A stretch of 50,664 bases of DNA from IMG/VR virus record IMGVR_UViG_3300025162_000019, positions 138,826 through 189,489 of that record; one strand, written 5' to 3'. Positions 12,259 to 45,826 of the stretch are shown here, piece by piece; the stretch's first letter is position 1; each line of letters starts with the position of its first letter. The notes under the pieces are model-generated. The model saw only the letters and a list, made by a program, of their open reading frames with translations. It did not search any database and was not told where the DNA came from. The stretch is from a virus (lineage: Duplodnaviria; Heunggongvirae; Uroviricota; Caudoviricetes). The position numbers and the translations under genes were made by a program.

Positions 12259-15180
12259 TTATCTCATATCTTTCTTAACACGATACCATATTGTAAATGT
12301 AACATTATCAGGTTTAAATATTAAATCGCAATAAGTGTAAAATACTATATTATTATTTATATCAAACAGACCAATTTCATAAATGTTCATATCTCTATCA
12401 TCATCGACATTTATTTCAAAATAGAAAAATTCATTATCACTCTTTCTTCTTACTATAGGATACTGCCCATATGATTTTTCCATACCATGATTACTTTCTG
12501 GATTCCATTTTCTACCAGATGTACCATATCCAACTTCAGCATAAGTCACATTATTAATAATACCTGTCATATCTGTTGGAGAAATACCTATCTTTCGTAT
12601 AATAGCCGTTCCTGTTATTGAAGAGCCAAAAACAACAGTACATGAATTTGCATTATCAATAGTAAAAGTTTTTGGATAAACTATATAACCATCTTCATCA
12701 TAAAACTGTGCTTGTATAGCATTAGCATTCAGTCCATGATATATATTCCATGTAGTTGAAGCACTATCTCTTACATATCGTGACAAATCGGTATCAAATC
12801 TTGTTGCTGTATATGCAAAACCAGAATCGGAATATGCTAAATTTACTAAATATTCGGTTTGACTATCAGCAACTATTGATAAGGGTAAGAACTTGAATCT
12901 ATCAACATCATCTGTCTGAACAATATTCCATTTCTCAGCATCGCCATCAAAATTTAATCCATGTGTAACTGTCCATTGAATAGCATCAGATGCTTGTTCT
13001 AATGTAAATTCCGATACAGTTAAATAAGCAAATCCAGCAGTAGGTGTCGCAAATGTTATTTTAATTCTGTTTGCATCAATATTCTCAATAGATTTAGGTT
13101 CAAACATAACTTGCCCTAAAGTAAAACATTGTGTAATAATATTAGTTGAATTTAAATCATGTTTTATAATCCATGCTAACGAATTTGAGAATGACGCATA
13201 TACTAAGTTACCTTCTATACTACTCAATATAGGCTGATAACATTTAGAATACATTGCAGCTGCATAGTTTCCTGTATATAGAGGTATATTTTTTCCTGTA
13301 AAGTCTGTAATAGGTGCAATCAATTCATAATAATGTGAAAATCTACTAACTGGCCTAAACTTTTCAAAGTTACTTATAAGAATAGTTATTAAATCTTCAT
13401 TGATAATAAAATTTGTACCTAATGGCTCTCGGCTCAAATCCATTTCAACTTTATAATGAGGTGATAAGCACAAACCGCCACTTACTTCTTTTGAATATGT
13501 GGGATACTCAATAATCTCAGTATTATCAAAAACTATAGCATTACCAGATGCTTCATAACTAAATGTAATTAATAAACTATTTTTATCTAAGAATGTAATC
13601 TCATCTGGTACTTCAACCATATCATCAACTACAACTTGAACAATGGGATATTTTGTATTTAAATCATGTTCAACAATCCAAGACGATGAGGCTGCTGAGG
13701 TCGAATATGTATATAATTGATTATCAATACCTATTACAGCTGAGCCATCAATAGGATTATCAAAATAAACAGATAAATTATTTATATCATCAAAAATTAT
13801 CCTATTAGGTACGATAGAATAATCAGTACTCGAAACTTGCGCCATAGGATATTTGACACCTAAATTATGATTTATATGCCAAGTTGCTAAAGGTGTTCTC
13901 TGATCGAATTGATACCTATATGCGTTATTATCAGTTGTCATTGTAACTACTTTACCTGTTACAGCAGTATCAAAAGTTGCGACTAAATTATTTGAATCTG
14001 TAAAATATATCGAATCAGGTATAATAACCTGTTCATCATTATTTATAAACTGTGTAAAAATAAACTGCTCATTATATCCGTGAGTTACTTTCCATTCGGT
14101 AGAAACATCTTCAAAATATGTTAAAGATACACCAGCATCATAATAATAACCAGCACCAGCGCCTAGTGATGGTGGCAATGTATTATAACTTGGATATGAT
14201 ATATATAAATAATCATCAAAATAATTCAGTGGGGAGCCAGAAACTTCCCAATCATGCCATCTTTCATAAATATTAAGATAATTTAATGTATTATAAGTTA
14301 AAATTTTCCATATAATAAACAAAGAAGTATAAGTTCCCTTTCTCTTTAAGAAGTCAGGCAACTTACTCACATATTCTCTTTGTTCCTTTTCTGTAATTCG
14401 TTCTAATAAATTAACATCATACATATTAGAAATATAATATAGATAATCAAAATCAACTTCTGCTGGATCGGATAATGTCCATATATTCTTTAATAAGTTA
14501 TAGTTCTTACTGAAAACCCTATCAAAATATAGCTCTAAAAATCTAGCCATTAACATATTATACACATCATACTTATAACCATTTGCTGTGTCTATTACCA
14601 CTTTGGACTTATCACTACCTCTATTATTATAAGGCAAGGCATTAACGACAAAATCCTTAAAAGTATCTATAATAATATCAATTCTATTAGTTGCTGATAT
14701 ATATAACTTGCCAATATAATAGTATAACTTATTTGTATTTAAGTAATCAGTATAATCTGTATTGCTATCAATATAATCATTAAACTGGCGGTCTTTCTTA
14801 AAATAAACTTCACAACCATTATTGTCTATCAAATCTTCAATAGTTAGTTCGCAAAATCTATATGCATCACTCTCGTAGTTGAAACTAAATATATTACCTA
14901 TTGGTGTTCCACTTATAGGTGTTGCTTTTATTCTATAATATGTTCCTTCCACTTTAACATACAACTCAACACCAAAACCATATTTTGCAATGATGCCCGA
15001 CTTAGCACCTCTAAGTGAAACAGAAGAAGGATAATGATAGTTATGAGGTACTATTCTATTTCTTATTATAGTTGATGGTATATTAGTATCTAAACTAGTA
15101 AGATTTTTATGTATATCATTATCTTCATCTGTAAAATAGTTACTTAATATAAAATAAGGTGTATCAGAAAATTTTGCCAT
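12259..15180 (-). CDS. large baseplate wedge protein (gp7-like) with multiple W-x-I-x-H-N-L repeats
   Basis: Follows gp6; LSDPAEVDFDYLYYISNMY...QREYVSKLPDFLKRKGT resembles the gp7/P2 gpI module; about 7 repeats such as TWHINHNLGVKYPMAQV, SWIVEHDLNTKYPIVQV. Confidence 0.65.
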   Translation of the reverse strand: MAKFSDTPYFILSNYFTDEDNDIHKNLTSLDTNIPSTIIRNRIVPHNYHYPSSVSLRGAKSGIIAKYGFGVELYVKVEGTYYRIKATPISGTPIGNIFSFNYESDAYRFCELTIEDLIDNNGCEVYFKKDRQFNDYIDSNTDYTDYLNTNKLYYYIGKLYISATNRIDIIIDTFKDFVVNALPYNNRGSDKSKVVIDTANGYKYDVYNMLMARFLELYFDRVFSKNYNLLKNIWTLSDPAEVDFDYLYYISNMYDVNLLERITEKEQREYVSKLPDFLKRKGTYTSLFIIWKILTYNTLNYLNIYERWHDWEVSGSPLNYFDDYLYISYPSYNTLPPSLGAGAGYYYDAGVSLTYFEDVSTEWKVTHGYNEQFIFTQFINNDEQVIIPDSIYFTDSNNLVATFDTAVTGKVVTMTTDNNAYRYQFDQRTPLATWHINHNLGVKYPMAQVSSTDYSIVPNRIIFDDINNLSVYFDNPIDGSAVIGIDNQLYTYSTSAASSSWIVEHDLNTKYPIVQVVVDDMVEVPDEITFLDKNSLLITFSYEASGNAIVFDNTEIIEYPTYSKEVSGGLCLSPHYKVEMDLSREPLGTNFIINEDLITILISNFEKFRPVSRFSHYYELIAPITDFTGKNIPLYTGNYAAAMYSKCYQPILSSIEGNLVYASFSNSLAWIIKHDLNSTNIITQCFTLGQVMFEPKSIENIDANRIKITFATPTAGFAYLTVSEFTLEQASDAIQWTVTHGLNFDGDAEKWNIVQTDDVDRFKFLPLSIVADSQTEYLVNLAYSDSGFAYTATRFDTDLSRYVRDSASTTWNIYHGLNANAIQAQFYDEDGYIVYPKTFTIDNANSCTVVFGSSITGTAIIRKIGISPTDMTGIINNVTYAEVGYGTSGRKWNPESNHGMEKSYGQYPIVRRKSDNEFFYFEINVDDDRDMNIYEIGLFDINNNIVFYTYCDLIFKPDNVTFTIWYRVKKDMR

Positions 15181-17936
15181 TATCCTTCCTCTGTAAATGT
15201 GCAGTTATCTATTAGAACTTGCGGAAATTGATTATTACCCAACTCTATATCTCTAAGTTTATTATATCCATTATGAGTTATCTTATCTACAGTATATTTA
15301 GGAAAACCAATAAAGTTTCTTAAAACCATACCAAAACAATCACCTGCCTGAACATCAGTCACACCGTAATCTATGATTTTTACGGGATCAAATATATCAT
15401 CATTACTATTATTACCTAGTTGCCCGTAAGCATTCCAACCCCATGACCAAACAGCACCTTCAGTATCAAGGCCAAAAAAACTAACACTATTACTACAAAC
15501 TGCAACATTTGTAAAACTAACATCCATAACTGTTGCAACCGGACTTAATGTTGGTGGAGCCATAATATCAATATCCATACCCCAAGTATATACATTATCT
15601 TCCGATATACCAATAGAACATCCCAATCCGCAAGCTACATCCTTAAAACTTAAAGTTGATAGAACAGCAACTGGACTTGAACGACTATTTGTAGTACCAT
15701 CGCCTAACTGACCTTTATCATTATAACCCCACGCCCAAAGTGAACCATCTGAACTACGAATACCTATAATATGATCCATGCCAACAGATATTTTACTGAA
15801 TTGTATTCCGCCTAAAATCAAAGATGGTATTGAAGTATCAATATTTGTAAAATTAGCTAGCTGACCATAATTATTAGCACCCCATGCCCAAACTTCTCCA
15901 TTATTATCAAGTCCATATGAAGATGTATAACCAGCTATGACCTGAACCAAACTTGCACTACATGATACTAATACAGGGCTTGAACAACTATTACCACTTG
16001 TATTATTTCCAAACTGTCCATATGTATTATCACCCCACGCCCATAGCGAACTATCTGAACCATTAATACCTAAACTATGCATACCGCCAACAGAAATATC
16101 ACTAAAACTAATATTACCTTTTACAAAAACAGGACTTATTCTATCAATTACAGTACCATCTCCTAATTGGCCAAACATATTGTTACCCCAAGCCCATGCT
16201 GTACCATCCTCTTTTAAACCGATGGAATATACACCGAATGTTGATATTTTAGAAAAATTATCGGTATCAGCTAACAATACTGGTATAGACCTATCAGCCC
16301 AGTTTATATCATTATTGCCTAACTGCTTAGTATTATTCATACCCCATGCCCAAACAGCACCAGTAGTATTAGGTTCATATATAATATTTGCATTTACATC
16401 TCTAAACATTATATACTGAACTCCTTTTATATATGTAAAGTTATCAGTAGGCGAAACTTTACTTGTATCCATTAAATAGTCTATTATATCTGTCAACTTA
16501 ATTGTTTCATTAAAACTTCTATTAACATAGTTAAAATAGTATTCTAACTTATTCTTCACTGCTTCTTCTACTAAAGCAAAAGAATATGTACGTTTAGGCT
16601 TTATACCAATATCAAAAGAAAAATATACAAGATCAGGTACTTCATATTGTTCATAGATACATATAACCTTTCTAGGTTCAAGATACTTAGCTAAATCCGT
16701 TTTATATTCATCAGCATATAAGGTTGGAGTCAAAGAGCCATCAGCATTTGTAGTCTTATTAATCGTAGTAGTTCCCCATGTATCAGGTATAACAGAAATA
16801 TAAACTTTATTATACTCTAAAATTGAGCCAGATGGTGTCACACTTTGCTGGCCCCATGCATTTGCAGCAATAACATTATCCTTCTCTTCAAGAAACTTTA
16901 CATAATCATAAGATGTGACATCTCTAAACTGGTCATACATACTGCCAACAGAGTTTATTTTAATATCAGCAATACTTTCAGGACTTAGGCCACCTGTTGC
17001 GGAACTATGAGTAGTAATAACATAATTAGCATTATTTCCAGAGCCAGTTTCAAGATATGAAGTTTTTGTAGTGTTATAAATAAAATTAATAGGTAACTTA
17101 GTTACCACATTATTAGATACATTACCATTTTCACCCAAAGATTCTAATAAAGTTATAGAAATTGTACTATATGTTTCAGGTAAATTATTAGAACTTGAAA
17201 ACTCTACAACATAGTTTTGATACTTATTATACTTGAACATATAAATATTATCTCTGATACTTAAACCAGATATAGTATCATAGAAATTTTCAACTCTTGC
17301 CCAAGTTACGTCATCTACTTTTACTTCCATACAAGGATATACATTAGTTAAGTCATCATCATAGTCAAACTGTAAATAAGGTAAGTATATTTTATTGTCT
17401 ATCAAATCAATACCTGTAAACGTATATGTATGAACTTTACCTTGCCTTACTGGAACAGAAAAACTAAAAGGTACGGCTGTAACTTGTACTGTAGTTGTTT
17501 CAATAGTAGAAAATCGTATATTATTACCTTCAGAATCTTTAACATTCAAACCAGTATCGGGATTACATTCTATTTCAACCCAAGCAGGAATGGTAAGTGC
17601 ATCATATAAACTAATCCCTGTTGATGCGCCAAGAGTAAATGTTAAATAAGTACTTGAAGATATATAACCTTTTGGATTATAACCCCTAAGTCTTGATAAC
17701 ATATGTGTTGTTTCATATATATCAGATGAACTAAGATATTGGTTTTTTGCAACTTTATTAATATGATACATTGTAAGCATATTAATATAAGAAACCAGTT
17801 CACTTAAAATTGTTATATTGTTTCCTTCTATGTTATAATCCTTATATATTGGATTAGAACTCAATAAATCAAACAATCTCGTTCTCATTGTTTTATAATC
17901 AATATTTAAATAATCAGGTACTAATGTATTTGACAT
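15180..17936 (-). CDS. gp6: gp6-like baseplate wedge protein with inserted RCC1 beta-propeller (copy A)
   Basis: DYLNIDY..., DYNIEGNNITILSELVSY, RGYNP, ATGGLSPESIADIK, RDVTSYDY; 7 W(A/S)WG-N--GQLG repeats at about 15320-16361. Confidence 0.85.
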   Translation of the reverse strand: MSNTLVPDYLNIDYKTMRTRLFDLLSSNPIYKDYNIEGNNITILSELVSYINMLTMYHINKVAKNQYLSSSDIYETTHMLSRLRGYNPKGYISSSTYLTFTLGASTGISLYDALTIPAWVEIECNPDTGLNVKDSEGNNIRFSTIETTTVQVTAVPFSFSVPVRQGKVHTYTFTGIDLIDNKIYLPYLQFDYDDDLTNVYPCMEVKVDDVTWARVENFYDTISGLSIRDNIYMFKYNKYQNYVVEFSSSNNLPETYSTISITLLESLGENGNVSNNVVTKLPINFIYNTTKTSYLETGSGNNANYVITTHSSATGGLSPESIADIKINSVGSMYDQFRDVTSYDYVKFLEEKDNVIAANAWGQQSVTPSGSILEYNKVYISVIPDTWGTTTINKTTNADGSLTPTLYADEYKTDLAKYLEPRKVICIYEQYEVPDLVYFSFDIGIKPKRTYSFALVEEAVKNKLEYYFNYVNRSFNETIKLTDIIDYLMDTSKVSPTDNFTYIKGVQYIMFRDVNANIIYEPNTTGAVWAWGMNNTKQLGNNDINWADRSIPVLLADTDNFSKISTFGVYSIGLKEDGTAWAWGNNMFGQLGDGTVIDRISPVFVKGNISFSDISVGGMHSLGINGSDSSLWAWGDNTYGQFGNNTSGNSCSSPVLVSCSASLVQVIAGYTSSYGLDNNGEVWAWGANNYGQLANFTNIDTSIPSLILGGIQFSKISVGMDHIIGIRSSDGSLWAWGYNDKGQLGDGTTNSRSSPVAVLSTLSFKDVACGLGCSIGISEDNVYTWGMDIDIMAPPTLSPVATVMDVSFTNVAVCSNSVSFFGLDTEGAVWSWGWNAYGQLGNNSNDDIFDPVKIIDYGVTDVQAGDCFGMVLRNFIGFPKYTVDKITHNGYNKLRDIELGNNQFPQVLIDNCTFTEEG

Positions 17937-17957
17937 AGTTATCTTATTTCCTCTATA

Positions 17958-20882
17958 TTATTCTTCTTCTATAAATGTGCAATAATCAATTAAAATATTT
18001 GGAAACTGACTTTTATCTAAAGCTATATCTCTAAGCTTGTTGTTTCCGGTATAAGTAGATTCATTAACAGTATATTTGGGAAACTCGGTTACGGTATCCT
18101 TTAGAGCTGCTACAAAATTAAATCCTATAGTAAGATTATTAACACCAGTAAAACCAGCTATACCTACCGGACTTTGATATGATATAATACTATTATTACC
18201 TAACTGGCCATTTGTATTATTACCCCATGCCCACAAAGAAGTATCAGAACCCCGAATACCCATTGTTGTATAAAAGTTATTCATTTTTATATCCTTAAAA
18301 CTTATACCACCTTGAACAGAAACAGGGCTTGAATAATTCGTAGCATTACCAGTACCTAAGTTGCCTTGAGGATTATAGCCCCATGACCAAGCAGAGCCAT
18401 CTAAACCATTTATAGCAAAACAACTTGCACCATCAGTTATAAACTTTGTATAACTACGATTTCCTATTACTGAAACAGGATTTGATTGACTGCCTATAGT
18501 CCCATTACCTAACTGGCCATAATTATTAGCACCCCAAGTCCATAAATTCCCTGTTTCATTTTCAATACCGCCAATAGAATTCAACTGACTAAATTGTATT
18601 CCTCCAGCTACAGAAATAGGGCTTGAATAGTTATCAGTAGTATTATTTCCTAACTGGCCAAATGTATTATCGCCCCATGCCCAAGCAGTTAAAGTGAGAA
18701 GATTCAAACCATATACATAGTTATTATCTACAACTATCTGCTTATAACTTATGCCGCCAAGAACTGAAACTGGCCTTGATTTATCTATTGTTGTGCCATC
18801 ACCTAATTGCCCATAAGTATTCAATCCCCATGACCATGCTTGATTACTCTTAGACAAACCAATAACAAAATTATTACCATTAATATATAATTTTTTATAT
18901 TTATTACCGCCAAGAACTGAGGTAGGACTTGACCTATCATTATAATCACCAACACCTAATTGTCCATTTGTATTATATCCCCACGCCCAAGCAGTATCAT
19001 CAGACATACGAATGCCTATGGCAGTTTTACCATCACAAAAAATATCACTAAAAATAATATTCCCTATGACAGAAACAGGGCTTACTTTGTTAGTAATAGT
19101 CCCATCACCTAGCTGCCCTTTATCATTTTGGCCCCATGACCATAATGTACCATCTTCTTTTAATCCATAAATGGAATTACTGTTTGATACAATCTTTGTA
19201 AAGCTCAAATTATTATGTATAACAACTGGCGAATGAACTTCTGCCCAATTAGAATCATTATTACCTAACTGCCCATATGTATTATCACCCCAAGTCCAAG
19301 CCATATTATTTGAATCAGGCTCAGATATTGTAACACTATCTATATCTATATCTCTAACTAAAAGATATTGTATTCCCTTTACATTAGAAAATGTTTCAGT
19401 TAAAGATATATTATTTGTATTCAATATATACTCAATTATATCAGTAATCTTTATCGTTTCTTGAAAACTACGATTATACTTTGAAAAATAATAATTCAAC
19501 TTACTTTTAACATCAGCCTCAACTAAACTGAAAGAATATGATGGCTTTACCTTTATGCCTATTTTGATTATAAAATTTAATATATCAGGTAAAACATAAG
19601 TATCATATGTTGAAATTATTTTTCTTGTTGCTAAATATTCTGTTAGTTTTCTCTTGTAATCTTCTGAATATATAATAGGTATAACTTCATGACCTGATTC
19701 ATCTTGTGAAATACTTATAGTTCCTGTACCCCATTCATCAGGTATAACAGTAATAAAAATTTTGTTATAATCTCCAGTATTACCTAATGGCGATTCTTCC
19801 ATCTCACCCCAAACACTTGCAGCAACAACATCAGTTCTTTGCTCAAGATGCTTAATATAATCAATAGAAGTAACATTTCTAAACTGTGAATGAAATGTGC
19901 CACTTGAATTATCTTTCATATCCTTTATAAGTTCAGGGTCAACACCACCAGTTGCGGCGGTATGGGTAATAGTTACATAATCAGAATCAATAGTATTGCC
20001 ATTAGTAAGATATGCTAATGTTGTTATATTATAAATAAACTCCGTATTTACAGGATTTATTATAGTATTTTCTTCAACATTTCCTTTCTTACCATATGAT
20101 TCTAATACCTTTACAATAATTTTATCTGTGGGTTTAGGAACACCACTTGATACTAAAAATTCAATAGAATATGTTTGATACTTGTCAAACTTAAACATAT
20201 AAATATTACTTTCATTTAATAGACCTGTAACTTCATTATAAAAATTATTCACTCTAACCCAAATATCATTTCCAACTTGAACTTCAATAGATGGCAGATC
20301 ATCATTCAAATCATTATCATAATCAAAGTTTAATGAAGGTAAATATAACTTATTATCTGATAGGTCTAATCCTGTATAGCTATATGTTTTAACTTCACCT
20401 TGCTTTACTGGAACTTGAAATGCGAATGGAAAAGAATCTTCTGTAATTGAAACAGTTGTAGTAGTTGTAGTGGTAAACTTTACTAGGTTCCCATCTTCGT
20501 TTTTCTCTGTAGATTCAATTTCTGTCCAAGCAGGAATAGTAAGTGTATCATATACAACTGCACCCGCTGATGGCCCAACACTTATTGTTAATGTTGTATT
20601 AGAAGATACATAACCTTTTGGCTCATATCCTTTAAGACTTGATAACATATGTGTTGTTTCATATATATCAGACGTATCAATATAATGATTTTTTACAACC
20701 TTATTAATATAAAAAGATGATATAGAACCAGCATATGAAACTAGTTCATCCAAAATAGCTAAATTATTACCATCTTTCAAATAATCCTTAAACACCATAT
20801 CATTACTAAGAACATTTAAAAAATCACTTTTAATTATATCAAAAGTCTTATCAAAATATTCAGGTACTAAATCATTTGACAT
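17958..20882 (-). CDS. gp6: gp6-like baseplate wedge protein with inserted RCC1 repeats (copy B)
   Basis: Colinear paralog of 15180..17936 (KGYEP, ATGGVDPELIKDMK, RNVTSIDY); 8 RCC1 repeats at about 18100-19310. Confidence 0.85.
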   Translation of the reverse strand: MSNDLVPEYFDKTFDIIKSDFLNVLSNDMVFKDYLKDGNNLAILDELVSYAGSISSFYINKVVKNHYIDTSDIYETTHMLSSLKGYEPKGYVSSNTTLTISVGPSAGAVVYDTLTIPAWTEIESTEKNEDGNLVKFTTTTTTTVSITEDSFPFAFQVPVKQGEVKTYSYTGLDLSDNKLYLPSLNFDYDNDLNDDLPSIEVQVGNDIWVRVNNFYNEVTGLLNESNIYMFKFDKYQTYSIEFLVSSGVPKPTDKIIVKVLESYGKKGNVEENTIINPVNTEFIYNITTLAYLTNGNTIDSDYVTITHTAATGGVDPELIKDMKDNSSGTFHSQFRNVTSIDYIKHLEQRTDVVAASVWGEMEESPLGNTGDYNKIFITVIPDEWGTGTISISQDESGHEVIPIIYSEDYKRKLTEYLATRKIISTYDTYVLPDILNFIIKIGIKVKPSYSFSLVEADVKSKLNYYFSKYNRSFQETIKITDIIEYILNTNNISLTETFSNVKGIQYLLVRDIDIDSVTISEPDSNNMAWTWGDNTYGQLGNNDSNWAEVHSPVVIHNNLSFTKIVSNSNSIYGLKEDGTLWSWGQNDKGQLGDGTITNKVSPVSVIGNIIFSDIFCDGKTAIGIRMSDDTAWAWGYNTNGQLGVGDYNDRSSPTSVLGGNKYKKLYINGNNFVIGLSKSNQAWSWGLNTYGQLGDGTTIDKSRPVSVLGGISYKQIVVDNNYVYGLNLLTLTAWAWGDNTFGQLGNNTTDNYSSPISVAGGIQFSQLNSIGGIENETGNLWTWGANNYGQLGNGTIGSQSNPVSVIGNRSYTKFITDGASCFAINGLDGSAWSWGYNPQGNLGTGNATNYSSPVSVQGGISFKDIKMNNFYTTMGIRGSDTSLWAWGNNTNGQLGNNSIISYQSPVGIAGFTGVNNLTIGFNFVAALKDTVTEFPKYTVNESTYTGNNKLRDIALDKSQFPNILIDYCTFIEEE

Positions 20883-20885
20883 ATA

Positions 20886-21281
20886 TTATCCTCTTTTAAG
20901 AATTGTGGTAACAGAATATATATTACTGGAACTTATAGAACCTACGATAGAAAAATTAACGGTTACTTCATATTGGTTATTATCATAATTTGATTGAACA
21001 TTCAAATTTTCTATTTTAATTCTTTTTTCCCATGTTTGAATTGATGATAAAAATTCAGAACCAATTCTTCTAGCTGTTATATCGTCCATTGGCTCAAATA
21101 ATAACTTATAAAAATTACTACCAAACTCAGGTAACATTCTTCTGCTACCCATCATTGTTGTCATTATATTTTTTAATGAGTTTCTAATGGAATCTATATC
21201 AGTATTTAACTCAACATCACCATCGTTTTGTCTGAATAGATCGCCATTAAAATCTGAATACATATAATCTTTAGTTGCCAT
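20886..21281 (-). CDS. gp25: gp25 baseplate wedge subunit
   Basis: DIDSIRNSLKNI...GSRRMLPEFGS...LFEPMD...WEKRI. Confidence 0.92.
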   Translation of the reverse strand: MATKDYMYSDFNGDLFRQNDGDVELNTDIDSIRNSLKNIMTTMMGSRRMLPEFGSNFYKLLFEPMDDITARRIGSEFLSSIQTWEKRIKIENLNVQSNYDNNQYEVTVNFSIVGSISSSNIYSVTTILKRG

Positions 21282-21999: not shown

Positions 22000-22827
22000 T
22001 TAAATTATTGATACAACTATACCATCTTTTACAGTAACATTTTTATTCCCAGCATCAAAACTACCATTAGCACCATTTCCAACTGAAACACTTTTAGTAG
22101 TCGTTACATCACCAACACATATTATATTCTGCGAAGTTAAAGTAATATTACCAATAGCTTTTATTGATACATCACCACCTGTTGTAATATCCCAATCACC
22201 ACCAATTTGAGCTGTTTTATTACCAGCAATACCGTCTGTACTATTTGCAATACAACTAAGTAAAACATCACCATCTTTATCTATTTCTATATAAGTTCCT
22301 GAACAATGAAATAATGTTATTTTTTCATTACCGGGAGTTGAATCAAATTCTATATAATGCCCACTATGAACAGATAAAATAACACTATGAGGATATACAC
22401 CATATCCAGCATTCCAATCTGGTTGACCTACTTTATCAGGATATACACCATCTGGATCACTAAATCCTTTACTTGTGTCTGGTGATTCAGTTGGTATGGC
22501 TGGAGCGGATGCAAAATATCTAGGTTGCATTATATTACCAGCCTCAAAGAACACAAATACATGAGAACCCTGTAATGGTACACCAAACCAACCATACTTA
22601 GAAATAGAACCCTCAATCAAACTTAATGCTGGTTGAGCCCAAGGCAATTCAGCTGTTGGTATACCTTCAGTTGCTGATTTAGTTTTCATTTCAGTATGTA
22701 TACCAAAAATACGAACTTTACATCGTCCTGCTTTTAAGGGATCAACATTATCTTCAACTACACCACGATATATTGAATTTAATTTATCCTGTGGTAACTT
22801 AACATCTTTAAATGTATTTTTATCCAT
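22000..22827 (-). CDS. gp5: gp5-like baseplate central spike (OB-fold plus short beta-helix, no lysozyme domain)
   Basis: YRGVVEDNVDPLKAGRCKVRIFGIH, LPWAQP, GSHVFVFF, YPH...HSGHYIEFDSTPGNEKI..FHCSGTYIEI. Confidence 0.9.
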   Translation of the reverse strand: MDKNTFKDVKLPQDKLNSIYRGVVEDNVDPLKAGRCKVRIFGIHTEMKTKSATEGIPTAELPWAQPALSLIEGSISKYGWFGVPLQGSHVFVFFEAGNIMQPRYFASAPAIPTESPDTSKGFSDPDGVYPDKVGQPDWNAGYGVYPHSVILSVHSGHYIEFDSTPGNEKITLFHCSGTYIEIDKDGDVLLSCIANSTDGIAGNKTAQIGGDWDITTGGDVSIKAIGNITLTSQNIICVGDVTTTKSVSVGNGANGSFDAGNKNVTVKDGIVVSII

Positions 22828-24116
22828 TATCTTTTTCCTAATATAGAATCAACTTTAATATTTGTATTTGTAGATTTTGACAATGTTTTATCATTGCTTT
22901 CCGTATAAGCATTTTTCAATAGAACTATTTTTTGCTTAAATACAGGGTCTTGTTTTCCACTAAAATGATTTGTAACTGATTTTATTAAAAATTTACCATC
23001 TAATGTGCTATTAAGAACTTGATCCCTCATTTCAGTACTTGGCCATTTTATATTCGTAAGTAAGCCAGGGTATCTTCTTTCATGTCCTTTAACTGTTATT
23101 GTTGCTGATAATTGTTTAGAGTATCTTTTTATAAAATCACATTCATGAATATTTCTAATTACATCAGCATCATCTTCACCTGACATAACAAAATTATCAT
23201 TTGGTGAACTTATTGTATCAGGAAATAAAGTATTTTTACCTAGCATAGTAAATTTAGAAATAACATCTGTATAAGTAAATGATTCATCTATTAATTTTTT
23301 CTTTAAAAAATCATAACCTAAAACTCTTGATCCTTTTAATTGCTTTATTGCTGAATTATCTATACTATCCATCTTCCAATCTAAAATTGTATTATATGTT
23401 TTTGTTTTATCGCCATCTTTATTAAAAAATTCATAATAAATTATTTTATTATTTTCATCCTTTTCAACATCGGTACTTTGAAATAATTTATTTATTGTAA
23501 CTAAATTCAGTCCTCTTGTATTAAAATAATATAAATATCCAGCCGTTTTGGATTCTGAGCCTGATCCTCTTTCAACTAACCAACGTATTGCTTCAGATGG
23601 CGTCCAATAGGGCATAAAAAAATATGATAATTTTTCTCTCGTATTCTCAAATATTTTAAAAGTTTCAATACTTAACATATTTTTAGTTATATCTTTAATA
23701 ATATCCGATATTCTTTTATCTGTCCATGATATATTATATCTTTTATCCATTAGATTAGAATAATTAGTATCGACAAGAAATAAATCTATTTGACTCATTG
23801 AATTAGACTTTATTTTATCCATAGGATTCATGCTATCGACATTAAAAATATTAAATATAATAGTTACTACTTCTAACTCACCATATTGAATAACAATATT
23901 TTCATGCCCTGTAAATGGTAAAAATTCTGCTAACCCTCCTTTATCATAAAAAGATATTTTACCAACTAAACAAAATGAAAATATATCTTCTATAAAGTAT
24001 ATTTCAGATATATCTTCAAGATTTATATGGAAAACTCTTCCGTTTGAAAGAAGCTTAACATTAAATACTCCTTTATCTTCTTTTATATTTGCATTTACAT
24101 CATCAGTATTACTCAT
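22827..24116 (-). CDS. baseplate hub protein (gp27-like)
   Basis: Between gp53 and gp5; IYFIEDIF, PYWTPSEAIRWL, LDGKFLIKSVTNHF typical of hub/late-control D-like proteins. Confidence 0.7.
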   Translation of the reverse strand: MSNTDDVNANIKEDKGVFNVKLLSNGRVFHINLEDISEIYFIEDIFSFCLVGKISFYDKGGLAEFLPFTGHENIVIQYGELEVVTIIFNIFNVDSMNPMDKIKSNSMSQIDLFLVDTNYSNLMDKRYNISWTDKRISDIIKDITKNMLSIETFKIFENTREKLSYFFMPYWTPSEAIRWLVERGSGSESKTAGYLYYFNTRGLNLVTINKLFQSTDVEKDENNKIIYYEFFNKDGDKTKTYNTILDWKMDSIDNSAIKQLKGSRVLGYDFLKKKLIDESFTYTDVISKFTMLGKNTLFPDTISSPNDNFVMSGEDDADVIRNIHECDFIKRYSKQLSATITVKGHERRYPGLLTNIKWPSTEMRDQVLNSTLDGKFLIKSVTNHFSGKQDPVFKQKIVLLKNAYTESNDKTLSKSTNTNIKVDSILGKR

Positions 24117-24493
24117 TATAAATCCGCCATATCCCTCATTTCTCTCATTAAATAAGATATATAATAATTTCTCAATATTTTTATATTTTGACCATCTTCT
24201 AATTCTTCAAATGGATTAATAACATTATTGATCAAGCATACTACCCACCACAAATTTATATTATCGTGTACTTTATCAGCTATATTTTCCCAAAAATCTT
24301 TATTATCAATTTCATAGGTGTCATAAAAAACAATATCATTTTTTACAGAATCATTAATAGAATATGATCTAAAAATATTTAAAAATTTTGTACCATCATC
24401 ATCTAAAATATTAAACATTCTTAAAAACGATGAATTTAATAATGTATGATCTGTTAAATCAAAAAAATTATCAGTTGCTTTATTTGTTGACAT
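24116..24493 (-). CDS. gp53: gp53 baseplate wedge subunit (LysM-like)
   Basis: YEIDNKDFWENIADKVHDNINLWWVVCLINNVINPF. Confidence 0.85.
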   Translation of the reverse strand: MSTNKATDNFFDLTDHTLLNSSFLRMFNILDDDGTKFLNIFRSYSINDSVKNDIVFYDTYEIDNKDFWENIADKVHDNINLWWVVCLINNVINPFEELEDGQNIKILRNYYISYLMREMRDMADL

Positions 24494-27492: not shown

Positions 27493-29979
27493 TTAAACTC
27501 TATTATTAATCCCTATCATTTGTCCGCCACCTAATTTATTATCAGACTTAGGTATATTATCTTGTGGTTTTGATACTTTTGTAGTATTAGAAGCAACTTG
27601 TGAATAAGCGTTTGTTTTTACCAATGGTGTTGCCACCTTTGCCATAGCTTTATTTTTATCATCTTTCTTTTGTTGTTCTGTTTTTGTTACATCACCTTCA
27701 GCAGAATAAACTCTCGAAGCCCCACTGCCGCCAGATTTCCCACCTTCACCAATAGCCGATACTGAAGCTGACGTTCCCTGACCTTTTGAAATTTCTTGAA
27801 CATCTTTATTTTGAGAATACAATTCAGCTTTAGTTAAATCATCTTTACCTTTACCACTACTTAATGATAATGAACCATTTACAGTTTTTTGCATTATAGC
27901 ATTTTGTGTTTCCAAATCTGCTGAATTTACATCAACACCTAATTTTTTAGCAGCTCTTTTTCTTCCTTCCGCCAAAAACCAAGCAACAACTTTTGCAGCA
28001 ACAACAGGATCATCATTAACTAAATCTGGATTATCTATTAAAGCATTACCCATACCAATAGCTTTACTAGCTTTAGCATAATTAGCTTTACCAGTTAATT
28101 GTATATATCCACGACCTCTATATTTATAAGCATCCCCTTCAGTTGTATTACCTAGTTCTTTACCTTTAGATGAGCCTGTACCATATAAAAGTTCAGCAAG
28201 TTGTCTAGGGTCTTTTCTAATAGAATCCAATTGAGCATCCGAATAACCACTAAGTTTTGTACCAAAAGTTTTCCTTAATCCTTGAACTGAATAATTAAGA
28301 TTTTCTTCTTGCCTTTTCCCTTTAGATTCTTTCATTACCTGGCCAAGACTTGCAGCAACAGCTTCATCATTTAAACCCTGAGCTTTTAATTCTTTTGCTA
28401 TCTGAGATAAATTTTGTTTTGTATTCTGCCCACTTAAACCTACAGCAGTTCCGGCAGCCATACCACCTCTAAAAATTGCAGTACCTGTACTTATCACAGC
28501 ATTACCAACATTTTTTCCAACATTTTCTCCAACAGTTCCTTTAGTAGATTGTGTAACAAATTTACCAAACCGATCTAACGATGATGATGCTTTAACAGCA
28601 GACCACTTAAAAATTTTAGAGATAACATCTAAAATACTAAAATTTCTTAATTCCTCTAAAAATCCTTCCCATGCATTACTTAAACCCGTTTTTATTATAC
28701 CTATTGGATCACTTATTAAATTAGAAAAAAATGTTGATATAGTTGTAAAAACATTCTTAATCTGTTTACCTGTTTCTACTAACCAATCAATAGCTTTTGT
28801 AACCGGCTTAAAAAAATCTGTCATTGATTTCCAACAATCCGACATAATTTTTAATGTTTCACTAATTATATTATGTGTACCAAGCCATTGTTTAAGTTTA
28901 GAATTATCCCATATTGAAATCATGTTTTTAAACAACATAAATACAGCAACACCACCACCAATAACTAAAAGTGGTATTATCATTTTTTTCATATATCCTA
29001 AAATAAAAACATTCACACCCTTAAAAAATCCTAACATATTAGACCAAAATTGTTTTTTAAATACATTTCCAATTCTTGCTTTCCATAATATACCAACTGC
29101 TAAAGAATCCTTTATAACTGTTCCAACCATACCAGCAGCTTTTACAGCAGATTCATATGCTTTAACTTTTAAATTTTTCTTTTTTTCTTTTGGACTTTCT
29201 TCCTGTTCATCTACATCCGATCCTTCTCTATTATTCTCTTTTTTAATAACTGAAACTATCTTTTTTACTACAGATTTTCTTCCTTTTATCGGCTCAGCAG
29301 TTTCTTTATCTCTATCATCAAGATTATCATCCACATCTTGCTCATCTTTTGAAAATAAATACTTTATACCTCTACTAACTTTTTTTAAAATAGAAGCGCT
29401 AGTTATTATATAATCCCATAAAGGGCCCATAAGAAATTCTAATTTTTCCATAAAATAATTCCCAATTTCTTTAAAGCCATTTGCAAAAAAATCGCCCATA
29501 GAAGTTGACGCAGTTTTCCAACCATCTTTAAAAAATACAAATGTTTTACTAATTGCACGAGTTAAAAAATTACTCTTTGTATGCTTCCATATTTTGGATA
29601 AAGCATTTTTTATAGACTCTGATACCTTTTTGGTATTTGTTAATTTTAACCCTTTAAATGGTGAACCGATGATATTAAAAAGTCTTTTAATTCCGTCTCC
29701 AAAATCAGTAAAAGATGTTTTAAATATATCTAATACATTTGTAAATATTGAAGATATTTCAGGACTTTGTTTAGGAAAAGCTTTACCTAAAATATTTCTA
29801 CGACTATCAATTTTTAAATCAATACCTTTAGCAGTATTCTTTATACCTTCATCAATATTTTCTAATTGTTCTGTTACTATACTATAATTTTCAGCAACAG
29901 AGCCGATATGACCTTGTTTAATCTTCTTAGTATGTGAAGCTCTTATTAACTTTTGAAATTTCTGTTCTTTTGTACTCAT
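27493..29979 (-). CDS. tape-measure-like protein with GH19-like (chitinase/lysozyme) domain
   Basis: LGQVMKES...ENLNYS...LGNTTEGDAYKYRGRGYIQLTGKANY...NPDLV at about 27960-28395. Confidence 0.75.
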   Translation of the reverse strand: MSTKEQKFQKLIRASHTKKIKQGHIGSVAENYSIVTEQLENIDEGIKNTAKGIDLKIDSRRNILGKAFPKQSPEISSIFTNVLDIFKTSFTDFGDGIKRLFNIIGSPFKGLKLTNTKKVSESIKNALSKIWKHTKSNFLTRAISKTFVFFKDGWKTASTSMGDFFANGFKEIGNYFMEKLEFLMGPLWDYIITSASILKKVSRGIKYLFSKDEQDVDDNLDDRDKETAEPIKGRKSVVKKIVSVIKKENNREGSDVDEQEESPKEKKKNLKVKAYESAVKAAGMVGTVIKDSLAVGILWKARIGNVFKKQFWSNMLGFFKGVNVFILGYMKKMIIPLLVIGGGVAVFMLFKNMISIWDNSKLKQWLGTHNIISETLKIMSDCWKSMTDFFKPVTKAIDWLVETGKQIKNVFTTISTFFSNLISDPIGIIKTGLSNAWEGFLEELRNFSILDVISKIFKWSAVKASSSLDRFGKFVTQSTKGTVGENVGKNVGNAVISTGTAIFRGGMAAGTAVGLSGQNTKQNLSQIAKELKAQGLNDEAVAASLGQVMKESKGKRQEENLNYSVQGLRKTFGTKLSGYSDAQLDSIRKDPRQLAELLYGTGSSKGKELGNTTEGDAYKYRGRGYIQLTGKANYAKASKAIGMGNALIDNPDLVNDDPVVAAKVVAWFLAEGRKRAAKKLGVDVNSADLETQNAIMQKTVNGSLSLSSGKGKDDLTKAELYSQNKDVQEISKGQGTSASVSAIGEGGKSGGSGASRVYSAEGDVTKTEQQKKDDKNKAMAKVATPLVKTNAYSQVASNTTKVSKPQDNIPKSDNKLGGGQMIGINNRV

Positions 29980-41267: not shown

Positions 41268-42800
41268 TTAACTCTTTTTTGGCGGCCTTATAGTTGGGTT
41301 TGTGTCTATTTTTACTTCATATCTTTTATCGCCTATTGTAGTAGAAAGAACTACTGGTCTACCCCAAAGAGTATAAATATGCTCTAAAGTTTTTACTGTA
41401 TTTAACTTATCCAACTCAATACCAGAAAAATCATGAGATAAATATAATGAGCCATCAAAATGATGATTTCCATCTATTATATTTATTTTGGGAATACCAC
41501 TATTAGAAAAACTATTTACAATCAGTTCCCTAATCTGAGCTGCTGTATGATCTGTTCTAACATAGTCTACAGTATTTGCATAATCTGCACTTGGGACTTC
41601 AGTATAAATATACATATCCAACTTATCAATGACATCTTCTGTAAGAAAATCCTGCATAAAGAACCAATCTGTATATGTTCTCATTACATCCTTACACTTT
41701 TCAAAGCCACCCATTTCCTTTGTATCCCACTCTTCTTTTAACTTGTAATCACTACATTCCATATATTCTTTACCATGACGACCTTTATCCCATCTTTCCT
41801 CAATATGCTCCCACATACCAGAGCCAATAAGATACGGATTCATACTATATCTACTCATAGCTTTTACAAGTGAGTTGGAATAGTTATACTGCCCATGCTC
41901 TTCTGCTGTTAATAGTTCTTCATCAAATAGTTTATTCATAATCTTCTGATGAATGAATGTAGCCCAACCCTCATTCATATACCTTGACCTCATAATAGGC
42001 CAATAATACTGACCCTCAATTCTCAAGATTTCAAGAATGTCCTTCTGCCAATCTTCTAAAATGCGTGAGTTATCAATAATAAATCTAAGCAAATCTTCAG
42101 TAGGCTCAACAGGAATCTGCTGTTTCAGTTCTCTCCATAAACGATTATTCATTAAATCAATAGACGCATCGTCAACAAAAGCATCAACAGATTTATGGGT
42201 ATCTGTTAAATCACCAAAAGAAGATAGATTAGTAATCTTCCTTTTTTCTTTCATCTGATCAAATACACGCAACCTTTTTTCTTCTTCTGTTTCATTATCA
42301 AAAGGACTTGAATGAAACTGAATAGAATGCGCTGCATCTACAATCTTTTCAACCTCACCAATACCATACATTCTTTCGTATTCATTAAATCGTTTAGAAC
42401 CTTCCCTCATAACACTCATTATATCATTACGATTATTGATAAACCATTTACTTTCCGTAAAGAAATTTGTATGGCCATAAACATGGGCAATAACCAATGC
42501 CTGTACTGCCAATGTATTACTATCCATTAAGTATGCTCTTGCAGGATTATCATGTATTACAACTTCATATGGTAGACTATCACCATATAAATCATAAAGT
42601 GTTTTATTCTTCTCATAATCTCGCCCATACTTCCAGTTAGATATATTTGTAGGAAGTCTATATGCCATAATCTCAAGCATCCTCTGAGGTGGGATAACAT
42701 CAAACTCTACATCAACACTTTTCAACTTCATATCATCAAAAAGTATTTGTTTAATCCTGTCCTCAATTTTAATAAGTCTTTGTAAATTACCCTTTTCCAT
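41268..42800 (-). CDS. spoVR: SpoVR/YcgB family protein
   Basis: YEVVIHDNPARAYL, LVIAHVYGHTNFF, QYYWP..RSRYMNEGWATFIH, NPYLIG, HIYTLWG. Confidence 0.95.
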   Translation of the reverse strand: MEKGNLQRLIKIEDRIKQILFDDMKLKSVDVEFDVIPPQRMLEIMAYRLPTNISNWKYGRDYEKNKTLYDLYGDSLPYEVVIHDNPARAYLMDSNTLAVQALVIAHVYGHTNFFTESKWFINNRNDIMSVMREGSKRFNEYERMYGIGEVEKIVDAAHSIQFHSSPFDNETEEEKRLRVFDQMKEKRKITNLSSFGDLTDTHKSVDAFVDDASIDLMNNRLWRELKQQIPVEPTEDLLRFIIDNSRILEDWQKDILEILRIEGQYYWPIMRSRYMNEGWATFIHQKIMNKLFDEELLTAEEHGQYNYSNSLVKAMSRYSMNPYLIGSGMWEHIEERWDKGRHGKEYMECSDYKLKEEWDTKEMGGFEKCKDVMRTYTDWFFMQDFLTEDVIDKLDMYIYTEVPSADYANTVDYVRTDHTAAQIRELIVNSFSNSGIPKINIIDGNHHFDGSLYLSHDFSGIELDKLNTVKTLEHIYTLWGRPVVLSTTIGDKRYEVKIDTNPTIRPPKKS

Positions 42801-45054: not shown

Positions 45055-45082
45055 ATGAATCCTCTTTTCTATATTTTAAGTT

Positions 45083-45111
45083 ATTATATCATATAACTTG
45101 TTATTTGTCAA
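45083..45111 (-). promoter_or_regulatory. consensus sigma70-type promoter upstream of yeaH
   Basis: TTGACA, 17 bp, TATAAT with extended -10 TG; 26/29 nt identical to the rsr promoter. Confidence 0.85.
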
Positions 45112-45754: not shown

Positions 45755-45774
45755 TAAAATTTCCTTACTGAAGG

Positions 45775-45782
45775 TATTTATA
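45775..45782 (-). promoter_or_regulatory. late promoter TATAAATA for the HNH gene
   Basis: Exact consensus, intergenic, upstream of GGAGG SD. Confidence 0.5.
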
Positions 45783-45826
45783 TATTTCCTTTGTTGGGGA
45801 AACTATGTTGATTTTTCCGTACTATA

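What the first reader, a model, noticed from the sequence alone, without database searches (positions are those of the whole stretch)
15180..20882. gp6 duplicated into two paralogs, each with an RCC1 propeller inserted at the same C-terminal site
Seen: two colinear gp6-like genes (918 and 974 aa). In both, RCC1 repeats (7 in copy A, 8 in copy B with one shortened blade) interrupt the sequence between I..EP and FPKYT, and the gp6-like tail (NKLRDI.L...QFP) resumes afterwards. Known: T4 wedges contain two gp6 chains in non-equivalent positions with gp7; RCC1 propellers are interaction modules found in some phage adhesins. Inference: a heterodimeric gp6A/gp6B wedge could display up to 12 propellers around the baseplate as built-in receptor-binding or adhesion modules, an atypical T4-like baseplate.
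Basis: partly seen in the sequence, partly recalled or inferred. Interest (0 to 1): 0.7.

Follow-up and report, generated by a model that had tools for sequence, protein, structure and literature searches.

The report
Duplicated phage baseplate wedge with propellers
An uncultured T4-like lake phage has two diverged tandem copies of its gp6 baseplate wedge gene, each with a seven- or eight-repeat RCC1 beta-propeller spliced into the same C-terminal loop. This suggests a baseplate built from two different gp6 subunits that carries its own ring of probable host-binding modules.

Summary
Window 15180-17936(-) (gp6A, 918 aa) and 17958-20882(-) (gp6B, 974 aa) are colinear paralogs, 43% identical.

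- **They are gp6.** Profile search hits solved gp6 chains at E 2e-18 and 7e-16, hhalign against T4 gp6 gives 98.2%, and the top Foldseek hits for the gp6A model are gp6 of Klebsiella phage KP1 and T4.
- **The insert.** An RCC1-like domain (7 repeats in A, 8 in B) sits at exactly the same bond, about 40 aa before the C-terminus. The conserved tail resumes after it and is modelled with high confidence.
- **Rarity.** About 170 homologs and all 80 related viral loci examined have a single gp6 of about 566 aa without RCC1, in otherwise identical synteny.
- **Order of events.** A and B form one clade on long branches (SH-aLRT 99), so the duplication is lineage-specific. The insertion most likely came first.
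- **Persistence.** Both genes co-occur, full-length, in at least 7 independent assemblies.
- **New here.** Other family members carry Kelch, FG-GAP or unknown inserts in the same loop. The phage also has RCC1 propellers on a collagen-like fibre protein.

The heteromeric gp6A/gp6B wedge and the adhesin role are well-motivated inferences, not shown. No DGR reverse transcriptase was found in the record. I rate this a new variant of a known kind, of moderate to high interest.

The parts
17958..20882 (-). gp6B, 974 aa: baseplate wedge gp6 paralog with an RCC1 insert
   Evidence: ORF. Pfam RCC1 3e-57 and PHROG 219 2e-33. The AF2 core and tail are confident. The ortholog P0008 is 87% identical.
19305..20882 (-). 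gp6B core, aa 1-526 (N-terminal helices, wing, trifurcation and most of the C-terminal domain)
   Evidence: Alignment with about 566-aa homologs. Block pLDDT is mostly 70-96.
18084..19304 (-). gp6B RCC1 insert, aa 527-933, 8 repeats (the fifth is 47 aa)
   Evidence: Motif spacing and repeat list; 8 Pfam RCC1 stretches. The fold was not resolved by AF2, pLDDT below 50.
17961..18083 (-). gp6B conserved C-terminal tail, aa 934-974 (FPKYT...NKLRDI...QFP)
   Evidence: Family-invariant P935, N948, Q959 and E973. Block pLDDT is 75-94.
15180..17936 (-). gp6A, 918 aa: baseplate wedge gp6 paralog with an RCC1 insert
   Evidence: ORF. Pfam and PHROG matches. AF2 model with Foldseek top hits to gp6 of KP1 and T4.
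16359..17936 (-). gp6A core, aa 1-526
   Evidence: hhalign of the family against T4 gp6: 98.2%, family 10-347 vs T4 21-354. Block pLDDT over residues 71-520 is mostly 84-96.
15306..16358 (-). gp6A RCC1-like seven-bladed propeller, aa 527-877 (blade 6 degenerate)
   Evidence: VIA-align places residues 522-877 on RPGR, RCC1 and HERC2 RCC1-like domains at Z 25-26, 279-301 residues aligned, rmsd 3.4-3.8. Pfam WD40_RLD 5e-61.
15183..15305 (-). gp6A conserved C-terminal tail, aa 878-918
   Evidence: Family-invariant P879, N892, Q903 and E917. pLDDT is 84-95, with strands 903-907 and 913-916.
20886..21281 (-). gp25-like sheath initiator / wedge subunit, immediately upstream of gp6B
   Evidence: Pfam GPW_gp25 5e-17 and PHROG 261 4e-36. 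The gp25-gp6 order is the same in all related loci.
12259..15180 (-). 973-aa protein in the gp7 position (probable peripheral wedge subunit); its start shares a base with the gp6A stop codon
   Evidence: It follows gp6 in all relatives, at 725-2499 aa. The family profile hits A-1(L) wedge protein gp32, the gp7 equivalent, at E 0.003 (PMC10966104). There is no match to T4 gp7.
22000..22827 (-). gp5-like hub/spike OB protein (context of the baseplate module)
   Evidence: Pfam Gp5_OB 1e-14 and PHROG 430 4e-60.
24116..24493 (-). gp53-like wedge subunit (context)
   Evidence: PHROG 232 9e-14 and Pfam Phage_gp53 3e-4.

Best explanation
In this lineage of uncultured T4-like lake phages, an ancestral single gp6 wedge gene first acquired an RCC1-like beta-propeller. 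The propeller entered a surface loop of the last, C-terminal domain; in the solved baseplates described in the papers I read, the C-terminal/dimerisation domains of gp6-type proteins join neighbouring wedges. A propeller's two ends lie side by side, so it can sit in a loop without breaking the host fold.

The gene then duplicated in tandem, and the copies diverged to about 50% identity in the core.

I propose that gp6A and gp6B now fill the two non-equivalent gp6 positions of each wedge, together with the downstream 973-aa gp7-position protein. The baseplate would then carry 6 + 6 propellers around the inner ring. I further propose that these act as built-in adhesion or receptor-binding modules, alongside the RCC1 propellers on a collagen-like fibre protein of the same phage.

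Shown: gp6 identity, the exact shared insertion site, the lineage-specific duplication, and persistence of both genes.

Inferred: the order of events, the heteromeric stoichiometry, exposure of the propellers, and ligand binding.
For: **gp6 identity**
- Profile search hits solved gp6 chains at E 2e-18 (9f4a) and 7e-16 (T4).
- hhalign against T4 gp6 gives 98.2% probability.
- Foldseek top hits are 9f4a (2.6e-26) and 5iv5 (4e-24).
- Synteny is gp53, gp5, gp25, gp6, then the gp7-position gene.

**Propeller**
- Residues 522-877 of gp6A align to RCC1-like domains at Z 25-26.

**Rarity**
- Among the 120 homologs listed of 174 found, only A and P0008 (a B ortholog) have RCC1.
- All 80 related IMG/VR loci examined have one gp6 and no RCC1 in it.
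- No cultured-phage record listed whose match is to the gp6 core has a second gp6 place.

**Duplication in this lineage**
- A + (B, P0008) form a clade at SH-aLRT 99, with end branches of 0.64 and 0.67 against a median of 0.2.

**One insertion before the duplication**
- The insert sits at the identical bond in both copies, whereas the other inserts in the family lie before the YEPN motif, in the same loop.
- The first four repeats start at identical positions (529, 581, 632, 683) in A and B.
- Blade 1 is the reciprocal best match between A and B.
- Six derived substitutions are shared, including Y-to-F at the residue right after the insert.

**Both copies functional**
- A keeps 115 and B keeps 108 of 131 family-conserved columns. 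Their losses are mostly non-overlapping: 10 A-only, 17 B-only.
- Clusters of 10 and 12 natural variants, all but one per cluster full-length, share contig lengths. This implies co-occurrence in at least 7 assemblies.
- B against P0008 is 91.8% identical in the core and 80.6% in the propeller.

**Adhesin reading**
- Kelch (P0157), FG-GAP (P0145) and unknown inserts occupy the same loop in relatives.
- A 1004-aa protein with a collagen-like N-terminus and weak tail-fibre PHROG matches carries two RCC1 propellers at its C-terminal end.
- Bacterial seven-bladed lectins and BLIP-II are structural neighbours at Z 20-21.
- Natural variation is modestly enriched in the propellers (14/756 sites against 7/1136, Fisher p 0.014). 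A hot spot lies in the last strand of blade 1 in both paralogs.

**Precedent for distinct roles of the two gp6 positions**
- A-1(L) gp31A and gp31B, and phage 812 wedge proteins A and B (PMC10966104, PMC13433997).
Against: - There is no virion proteomics, no multimer model and no structure, so the stoichiometry is pure inference.
- The gp7 assignment of the 973-aa protein rests on synteny and one weak profile hit (E 0.003). hhalign against T4 gp7 found nothing.
[quoted passage not shown] I could not place the loop on a solved baseplate, so its exposure is assumed.
- The AF2 propeller of A has only moderate confidence (pLDDT 35-79), and that of B did not fold.
- Repeat-level similarity does not clearly pair A with B beyond blades 1 and 2. 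Several B blades are closer to those of the fibre proteins, so later module exchange cannot be excluded.
- The A + B clade joins two long branches, so long-branch attraction is possible.
- The variant sites are linked haplotypes, so the p-value overstates independence.
Confidence: 0.55

Rival explanations
1. The paralogs do form the wedge, but the propellers are internal docking platforms. They would hold fibres or other peripheral baseplate proteins in place of T4-type gp8-gp11, and would not contact the host.
For: - RCC1-like domains are classic protein-protein interaction modules (RCC1-Ran; BLIP-II-TEM-1 is a structural neighbour at Z 20).
- In A-1(L), the insertion domain of wedge protein gp31B holds the long tail fibre (PMC10966104).
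- No gp8, gp9/10 or gp11 Pfam match was found in the record.
- In relatives the baseplate module ends after the gp7-position gene and two small genes.
Against: - The same propeller family forms the C-terminal end of a collagen-like fibre protein, where a receptor-binding domain is expected.
- Relatives place unrelated propellers (Kelch, FG-GAP) or nothing in this loop. That suits interchangeable ligand binders better than a conserved structural joint.
- The propeller evolves faster than the core.
- The record is only 57% complete, so missing gp8-11 prove little.
Confidence: 0.2
2. gp6A and gp6B are alternative rather than obligate partners. Either one can fill both gp6 positions, giving mixed or alternative baseplates with two binding specificities, a form of host-range bet-hedging.
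For: - Both copies keep the whole gp6 architecture and most family-conserved residues.
- Their propellers differ strongly: about 41% identity and 7 against 8 repeats.
Against: - The genes are 21 nt apart on the same strand, with no terminator examined between them. They are therefore probably made together in similar amounts.
- The cores themselves diverged on long branches with mostly non-overlapping losses of conserved residues. That is expected if each copy adapts to one position, and unnecessary if only the propellers needed to differ.
Confidence: 0.15
3. Only one paralog is a virion component. The other is a redundant, decaying or non-structural copy.
For: No expression or proteomic data are available. 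Each copy departs from family-conserved residues more often than a typical single-copy homolog (16 and 23 against a median of 7).
Against: - Both ORFs are intact after about 50% divergence.
- Both are full-length in nearly all of 10 and 12 natural variants from at least 7 assemblies.
- The B ortholog P0008 shows a conserved core, 91.8% identical.
- All 33 invariant family columns are kept in both copies.
Confidence: 0.07

Closest known systems
T4 gp6 baseplate wedge protein and its (gp6)2-gp7 heterotrimer (PDB 5IV5, 5HX2; also Klebsiella phage KP1, 9F4A)
   Same: - The N-terminal half is homologous (hhalign 98.2%).
- The overall fold gives the top Foldseek hits.
- The gene sits directly after gp25 and before a large gp7-position gene.
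   Different: - There are two diverged genes instead of one gene used in two conformations.
- The core is shorter, about 566 aa against 660 aa.
- A 351-407 aa RCC1 propeller is inserted near the C-terminus.
- The C-terminal half is not alignable by sequence.
- No gp8-gp11 homologs were found nearby.
Single-gene wedge proteins of simpler myophages and T6SS: Pam3 gp22, XM1 gp16, A-1(L) gp31, phage 812 wedge protein, phiKZ gp87, Goslar gp63, TssF
   Same: The logic is two gp6-type chains plus one gp7-type chain per wedge. C-terminal dimerisation domains join neighbouring wedges. The two chains have different partners, and insertion domains are used for extra contacts (PMC9942802, PMC10457771, PMC10966104, PMC13433997, PMC13250141, PMC13742148, PMC6300606).
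   Different: In all of these the two chains are products of one gene. None is reported, in the papers I read, to carry a beta-propeller in the wedge protein.
Single-copy gp6 homologs of the same uncultured phage clade with other inserts in the loop (P0157 Kelch, P0145 FG-GAP, P0151/P0155/P0164 unknown)
   Same: They belong to the same gp6 family, use the same C-terminal loop as the insertion site, and in two cases the insert is a beta-propeller.
   Different: - Their insert lies before the YEPN motif, whereas the RCC1 insert follows it.
- The repeat families differ.
- The one such homolog whose downstream neighbour could be read (P0145 in L092) has no second gp6 copy. There the next gene, in the gp7 position, carries FG-GAP instead.
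phiKZ gp131 family of baseplate fibre proteins with a C-terminal seven-bladed propeller
   Same: A seven-bladed propeller at the baseplate periphery, proposed to bind the host, and multiplied by paralogy (PMC13250141).
   Different: There the propeller is the C-terminal domain of separate fibre proteins. It is not an insert in the conserved wedge subunit, and it is not reported as RCC1-type.

Membership tests
gp6 / gpJ / TssF-type baseplate wedge protein | Sequence homology to T4 gp6 (N-terminal helices, wing and trifurcation region) | tested here: met
   The family profile hits PDB gp6 chains at E 2e-18 and 7e-16. hhalign against T4 gp6 gives 98.2%, E 4.6e-14, family 10-347 vs T4 21-354. PHROG 219 scores 1.8e-37 (A) and 2.3e-33 (B). 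Pfam Gp6-like_1st is below its cut-off for A and B themselves (about 22 against 27 bits), but many homologs carry the domain in the precomputed Pfam annotation, and several insert-bearing relatives exceed the cut-off.
gp6 / gpJ / TssF-type baseplate wedge protein | gp6-like three-dimensional fold of the parts flanking the insert | tested here: met
   The AF2 model of A has a confident core and tail. The Foldseek top seven hits are gp6 chains of KP1 and T4 (E 2.6e-26 to 9.6e-21), followed by the phage P1 baseplate.
gp6 / gpJ / TssF-type baseplate wedge protein | Gene position after gp25 and before the gp7-type gene in a baseplate module | tested here: met
   The order is the same in all related loci inspected.
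gp6 / gpJ / TssF-type baseplate wedge protein | Two chains per wedge with one gp7-type chain; C-terminal domains join wedges | not testable with these tools
   No multimer prediction or virion data are available. The stoichiometry comes from the literature on other systems (PMC6300606, PMC10457771).
RCC1-like domain (seven-bladed propeller) | Tandem repeats of about 51 aa matching the RCC1 profile | tested here: met
   Pfam RCC1 at E 5e-57 (A) and 3e-57 (B); WD40_RLD at 5e-61 and 2e-71. There are 7 and 8 WxWG-led repeats.
RCC1-like domain (seven-bladed propeller) | Closed seven-bladed propeller fold | tested here: inconclusive
   For A, Z is 25-26 to RPGR, RCC1 and HERC2 over residues 522-877, but loop pLDDT is 35-50. 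For B the region did not fold, pLDDT below 50. Whether B is seven- or eight-bladed is unknown.
T4 gp7 / P2 gpI / TssG-type wedge protein (for the 973-aa neighbour) | Homology to a known gp7-type subunit | tested here: inconclusive
   The family profile hits A-1(L) gp32 (8kea) at E 0.003 over about 76 positions. hhalign against T4 gp7 gives 0.1% probability. Pfam finds nothing. The gene is in the gp7 position in all relatives.
DGR (diversity-generating retroelement) target protein | Reverse transcriptase plus template/variable repeat pair | tested here: inconclusive
   No PF00078 match was found in the 127.5 kb record. Direct repeats in the region are only the diverged RCC1 units. Natural variants differ at 7 sites (A) and 14 sites (B) in total. 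The record is about 57% complete, so a reverse transcriptase elsewhere is not excluded.

The most novel reading that the evidence does not exclude
This would be the first natural baseplate in which the two non-equivalent gp6 positions are encoded by separate, specialised genes, making an obligate gp6A-gp6B-gp7 wedge. More broadly, one loop of the gp6 C-terminal domain would serve as a general display site in a large clade of freshwater T4-like phages, into which RCC1, Kelch or FG-GAP propellers are swapped as baseplate-integrated receptor binders. This would be a route to host recognition that bypasses fibres.
Probability: 0.35. Interest if true: 0.7.

Novelty: new variant of a known kind. Interest (0 to 1): 0.55.

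Why it matters
The (gp6)2-gp7 wedge is the conserved core of all contractile injection machines. In every solved case, one gene product adopts two conformations with different partners.

A natural system that has split this job between two genes would show which surfaces belong to which position. It would also be a ready-made test of how symmetry breaking in the wedge evolves.

The recurrent insertion of unrelated beta-propellers into one loop of gp6 points to an overlooked place where host-range determinants can sit. That is useful both for predicting receptor-binding proteins in metagenomic phages and for engineering display sites on contractile tails.

Tried and rejected
I could not fetch the contigs of P0002, of P0008 (the B ortholog on a 3.5 kb contig) or of the insert-bearing homologs. 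Whether P0008's phage also has an A copy is unknown.
- **Megablast against cultured phages** found no match.
- **DGR idea.** No reverse transcriptase in the record, no template-like repeat, and little natural variation. I dropped this as an explanation, though the record is incomplete.
- **AF2 of gp6B** left the propeller unfolded, so the blade number of B rests on sequence motifs alone.
- **Sequence mapping of the insertion site onto T4 gp6 failed.** hhalign aligns only the N-terminal 347 positions, so I could not place the loop on the T4 baseplate.
- **T4 gp7 against the 973-aa family** gave no match.
- **Whole-propeller identities are uninformative.** Values among A, B and the two other RCC1 proteins are all 39-55%, and repeat-level best hits are dominated by the repeat consensus. 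They cannot date the insertion on their own.
- **Pfam gp8, gp9/10 and gp11 models** found nothing in the record, and the controls did not ring either. This is weak negative evidence.
- **S-WAM2 'baseplate wedge subunit (x2)'** turned out to be gp25 plus a single gp6.
- **Assembly chimera as the cause of the duplication** is rejected. The copies are only 43% identical, and both occur together in at least 7 assemblies.
Full report
**Setting.** The window is part of a 127.5 kb IMG/VR virus record, about 57% complete, about 30% GC, with nearly all genes on the minus strand. Earlier notes of this scan describe it as an uncultured T4-like lake phage. My own annotation agrees. It finds a T4-type large terminase, sheath, tube, gp5, gp25, gp53, the late sigma factor gp55 and SbcD.

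**The observation.** Two intact ORFs lie at 15180-17936(-) (918 aa, 'gp6A') and 17958-20882(-) (974 aa, 'gp6B'). They are 21 nt apart, with a GAGGA upstream of the second start.
- They align colinearly end to end at 43% identity. By region: core 49.6%, propeller about 41%, tail 56.5%.
- Both combine a PHROG 219 'baseplate wedge subunit' match over the first ~500-520 residues with very strong RCC1 matches behind it.
- A has seven WxWG-led repeats, the sixth degenerate. B has eight, the fifth only 47 aa.

**They are gp6.**
- A profile of the family hits the gp6 chains of Klebsiella phage KP1 (9f4a, E 2e-18) and T4 (5hx2/5iv5, E 7e-16) in the PDB sequence set.
- hhalign against T4 gp6 gives 98.2% probability over positions 10-347 vs 21-354.
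- The AF2 model of gp6A is confident in the core and in the last 40 residues. Its best Foldseek matches are seven gp6 chains of KP1 and T4 (E 2.6e-26 to 9.6e-21), then phage P1 baseplate chains.
- Residues 522-877 superpose on RPGR, RCC1 and HERC2 RCC1-like domains at Z 25-26. Seven-bladed bacterial lectins and BLIP-II follow at Z about 20-21.

**The insert is a clean loop insertion.**
- The closest homologs are about 566 aa and have no RCC1.
- In a 69-sequence alignment the family-invariant tail residues align across the insert: A P879, N892, Q903, E917.
- The short proteins read ...YEPNxxG-N-YPxY.... A reads ...YEPNTTG-[351 aa]-FPKYT. B has its 407-aa insert at the same bond.
- The tail after the insert is modelled with pLDDT 84-95 and forms strands. 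I infer that it rejoins the last domain.

**How unusual it is.**
- Of the 120 homologs listed of 174 found in the 5.8-billion-protein set, only gp6A itself and P0008 carry RCC1. P0008 is a 976-aa ortholog of gp6B, 87% identical.
- All 80 related IMG/VR loci examined contain exactly one gp6 and none has RCC1 in it.
- Their gene order matches the window except for the second gp6: gp53, PHROG-350 tail protein, gp5, variable, gp25, gp6, large gp7-position protein, 223-aa, 116-aa, gp55.
- No cultured phage listed whose match is to the gp6 core has a second gp6 place. The one suspicious annotation (S-WAM2) was gp25 plus one gp6.

**Order of events.**
- A maximum-likelihood tree of the 516 kept core columns, insert excluded, puts gp6A with (gp6B, P0008) at SH-aLRT 99, inside the single-copy relatives. 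Their end branches are 0.64 and 0.67 against a median of 0.2. The duplication is therefore lineage-specific and was followed by fast divergence.
- Several observations favour one insertion before the duplication:
  - the bond is identical in both copies, while all other inserts in the family lie before the YEPN motif, in the same loop;
  - the first four repeats start at identical residue numbers in A and B;
  - blade 1 is the reciprocal best match, with a shared NNDxNWA signature;
  - six derived substitutions at family-conserved columns are shared, including Y-to-F at the first residue after the insert.
- Caveats: two long branches may attract each other, and several B blades resemble blades of the phage's other RCC1 proteins more than A's. 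Later exchange of repeats is therefore not excluded.

**Both copies are maintained.**
- A keeps 115 and B keeps 108 of 131 columns that are at least 85% conserved in 66 single-copy homologs. Ten losses are A-only, 17 are B-only and 6 are shared. A typical single-copy homolog misses 7.
- The 90%-identity clusters of A and B hold 10 and 12 natural variants, all but one per cluster full-length. The lists of longest contigs coincide (197316, 45066, 41635, 35043, 29005, 12516, 10589). I read this as the pair occurring together in at least seven assemblies.
- Between gp6B and P0008 the core is 91.8% identical, the tail 93.2% and the propeller 80.6%.
- Among the close variants, 14 of 21 variable sites fall in the propellers (Fisher p 0.014, but the sites are linked). 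There is a small hot spot in the last strand of blade 1 in both paralogs, at A 568-569 and B 564-576.
- This is ordinary microdiversity, not DGR-style hypervariation. No reverse transcriptase is present in the record.

**New context 1: the loop is a recurrent insertion site.**
- A full HMMER search of 1.84 billion representatives with the core profile found further family members that are too long.
- P0157 (891 aa) carries Kelch repeats and P0145 (1139 aa) carries FG-GAP repeats.
- P0151, P0155, P0164, P0146 and P0149 carry 40-184 aa with no Pfam match or not scanned.
- In all of them the insert lies between the strand 'GIQxLxIRDI' and the YEPN-type motif, a few residues before the RCC1 site.
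- In locus L092 the FG-GAP gp6 is followed not by a second gp6 but by a gp7-position gene that also carries FG-GAP repeats.

**New context 2: the same phage uses RCC1 elsewhere.** Outside the window there is a 1004-aa protein with a collagen-like Gly-X-Y N-terminus, weak tail-fibre PHROG matches and 14 RCC1 repeats (two propellers). Next to it, at the contig end, is a partial protein with seven more.

**The neighbour in the gp7 position.**
- The 973-aa protein has no Pfam match and no similarity to T4 gp7 by hhalign.
- It follows gp6 in every relative, at 725-2499 aa with a variable repeat-rich middle.
- A profile of the family hits the gp7-equivalent wedge protein gp32 of cyanophage A-1(L) at E 0.003 (role of gp32 from PMC10966104).
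- I treat it as the probable third wedge chain, with low certainty.

**Mechanism proposed.**
- Papers on T4-type and simpler systems agree on the wedge plan. Each wedge contains two conformers of one gp6-type protein plus one gp7-type protein. The C-terminal or dimerisation domains of gp6-type chains tie neighbouring wedges into a ring. The two conformers have different partners (PMC6300606, PMC10457771, PMC9942802, PMC10966104, PMC13433997, PMC13250141, PMC13742148).
- Tandem paralogs with diverged cores fit a split of these two roles between two genes. That would put six A and six B propellers around the ring.
- Three observations make ligand binding the most likely role:
  - unrelated propellers are interchangeable in this loop across relatives;
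  - the same RCC1 module sits at the C-terminal end of a collagen-like fibre protein;
  - the propeller evolves faster than the core.
- A docking role for fibres is the main rival.
- None of this was tested directly. Stoichiometry, exposure and binding are all inferred.

**Comparison with what is known, and novelty.** The proteins are members of the gp6 family, and the insert is an RCC1-like domain. In the literature I could search, I found no report of two gp6 paralogs in one baseplate or of a beta-propeller inside a gp6-type wedge protein. The closest functional analogy is the propeller-tipped gp131 fibre family of phiKZ (PMC13250141). I class the finding as a new variant of a known kind.

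**Limits.**
- The insertion site could not be mapped onto a solved baseplate.

Noticed in passing
outside the window: G000:C1:123469-126483 (-), = L006:73-3087:-: A 1004-aa protein with a collagen-like Gly-X-Y N-terminus (GTSGSS repeats), a middle domain of about 170 aa and 14 RCC1 repeats (two propellers). It has weak tail-fibre PHROG matches. It is probably a fibre tipped with the same module as gp6A and gp6B.
   Followed up: partly
outside the window: G000:C1:126503-127545 (-), = L003:1036-2007:-: A partial RCC1 protein at the contig end whose 51-aa blades are near-identical. Blade 1 equals blade 4 and blade 2 equals blade 5 exactly. This is either a very recent tandem amplification of a three-blade unit or an assembly problem that ended the contig.
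   Followed up: no
window 12259-15180 (-): The gp7-position protein has a conserved N-terminus (1-338) and C-terminus (559-970) around a repeat-rich middle with five PHROG 21918 stretches. Its homologs range from 725 to 2499 aa, so the middle is a second variable display region of the wedge.
   Followed up: partly
L092:385-5898 (IMGVR_UViG_3300022696_000114): In a related phage, FG-GAP propellers occur both inside gp6 (P0145) and in the next gene, in the gp7 position. This parallels the multi-protein use of RCC1 in the window's phage.
   Followed up: partly
window 16227-16232 (gp6A aa 568-569) and 19155-19193 (gp6B aa 564-576): Natural variants of both paralogs are polymorphic at the equivalent spot, the last strand of propeller blade 1, as two linked haplotypes in each. 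This could be a recombination tract or a ligand-contact site.
   Followed up: partly
window 22000-22827 (-): The gp5-like protein is only 275 aa: an OB domain plus a PHROG match to the C-terminal part of gp5, with no lysozyme domain matched. The relative in L091 has a 575-aa gp5. An 828-aa protein at 27493-29979 carries the lysozyme/chitinase-like domain instead.
   Followed up: no
window 41268-47797 (-): SpoVR- and PrkA-family genes lie next to the large terminase gene. This was already noted by this scan.
   Followed up: no
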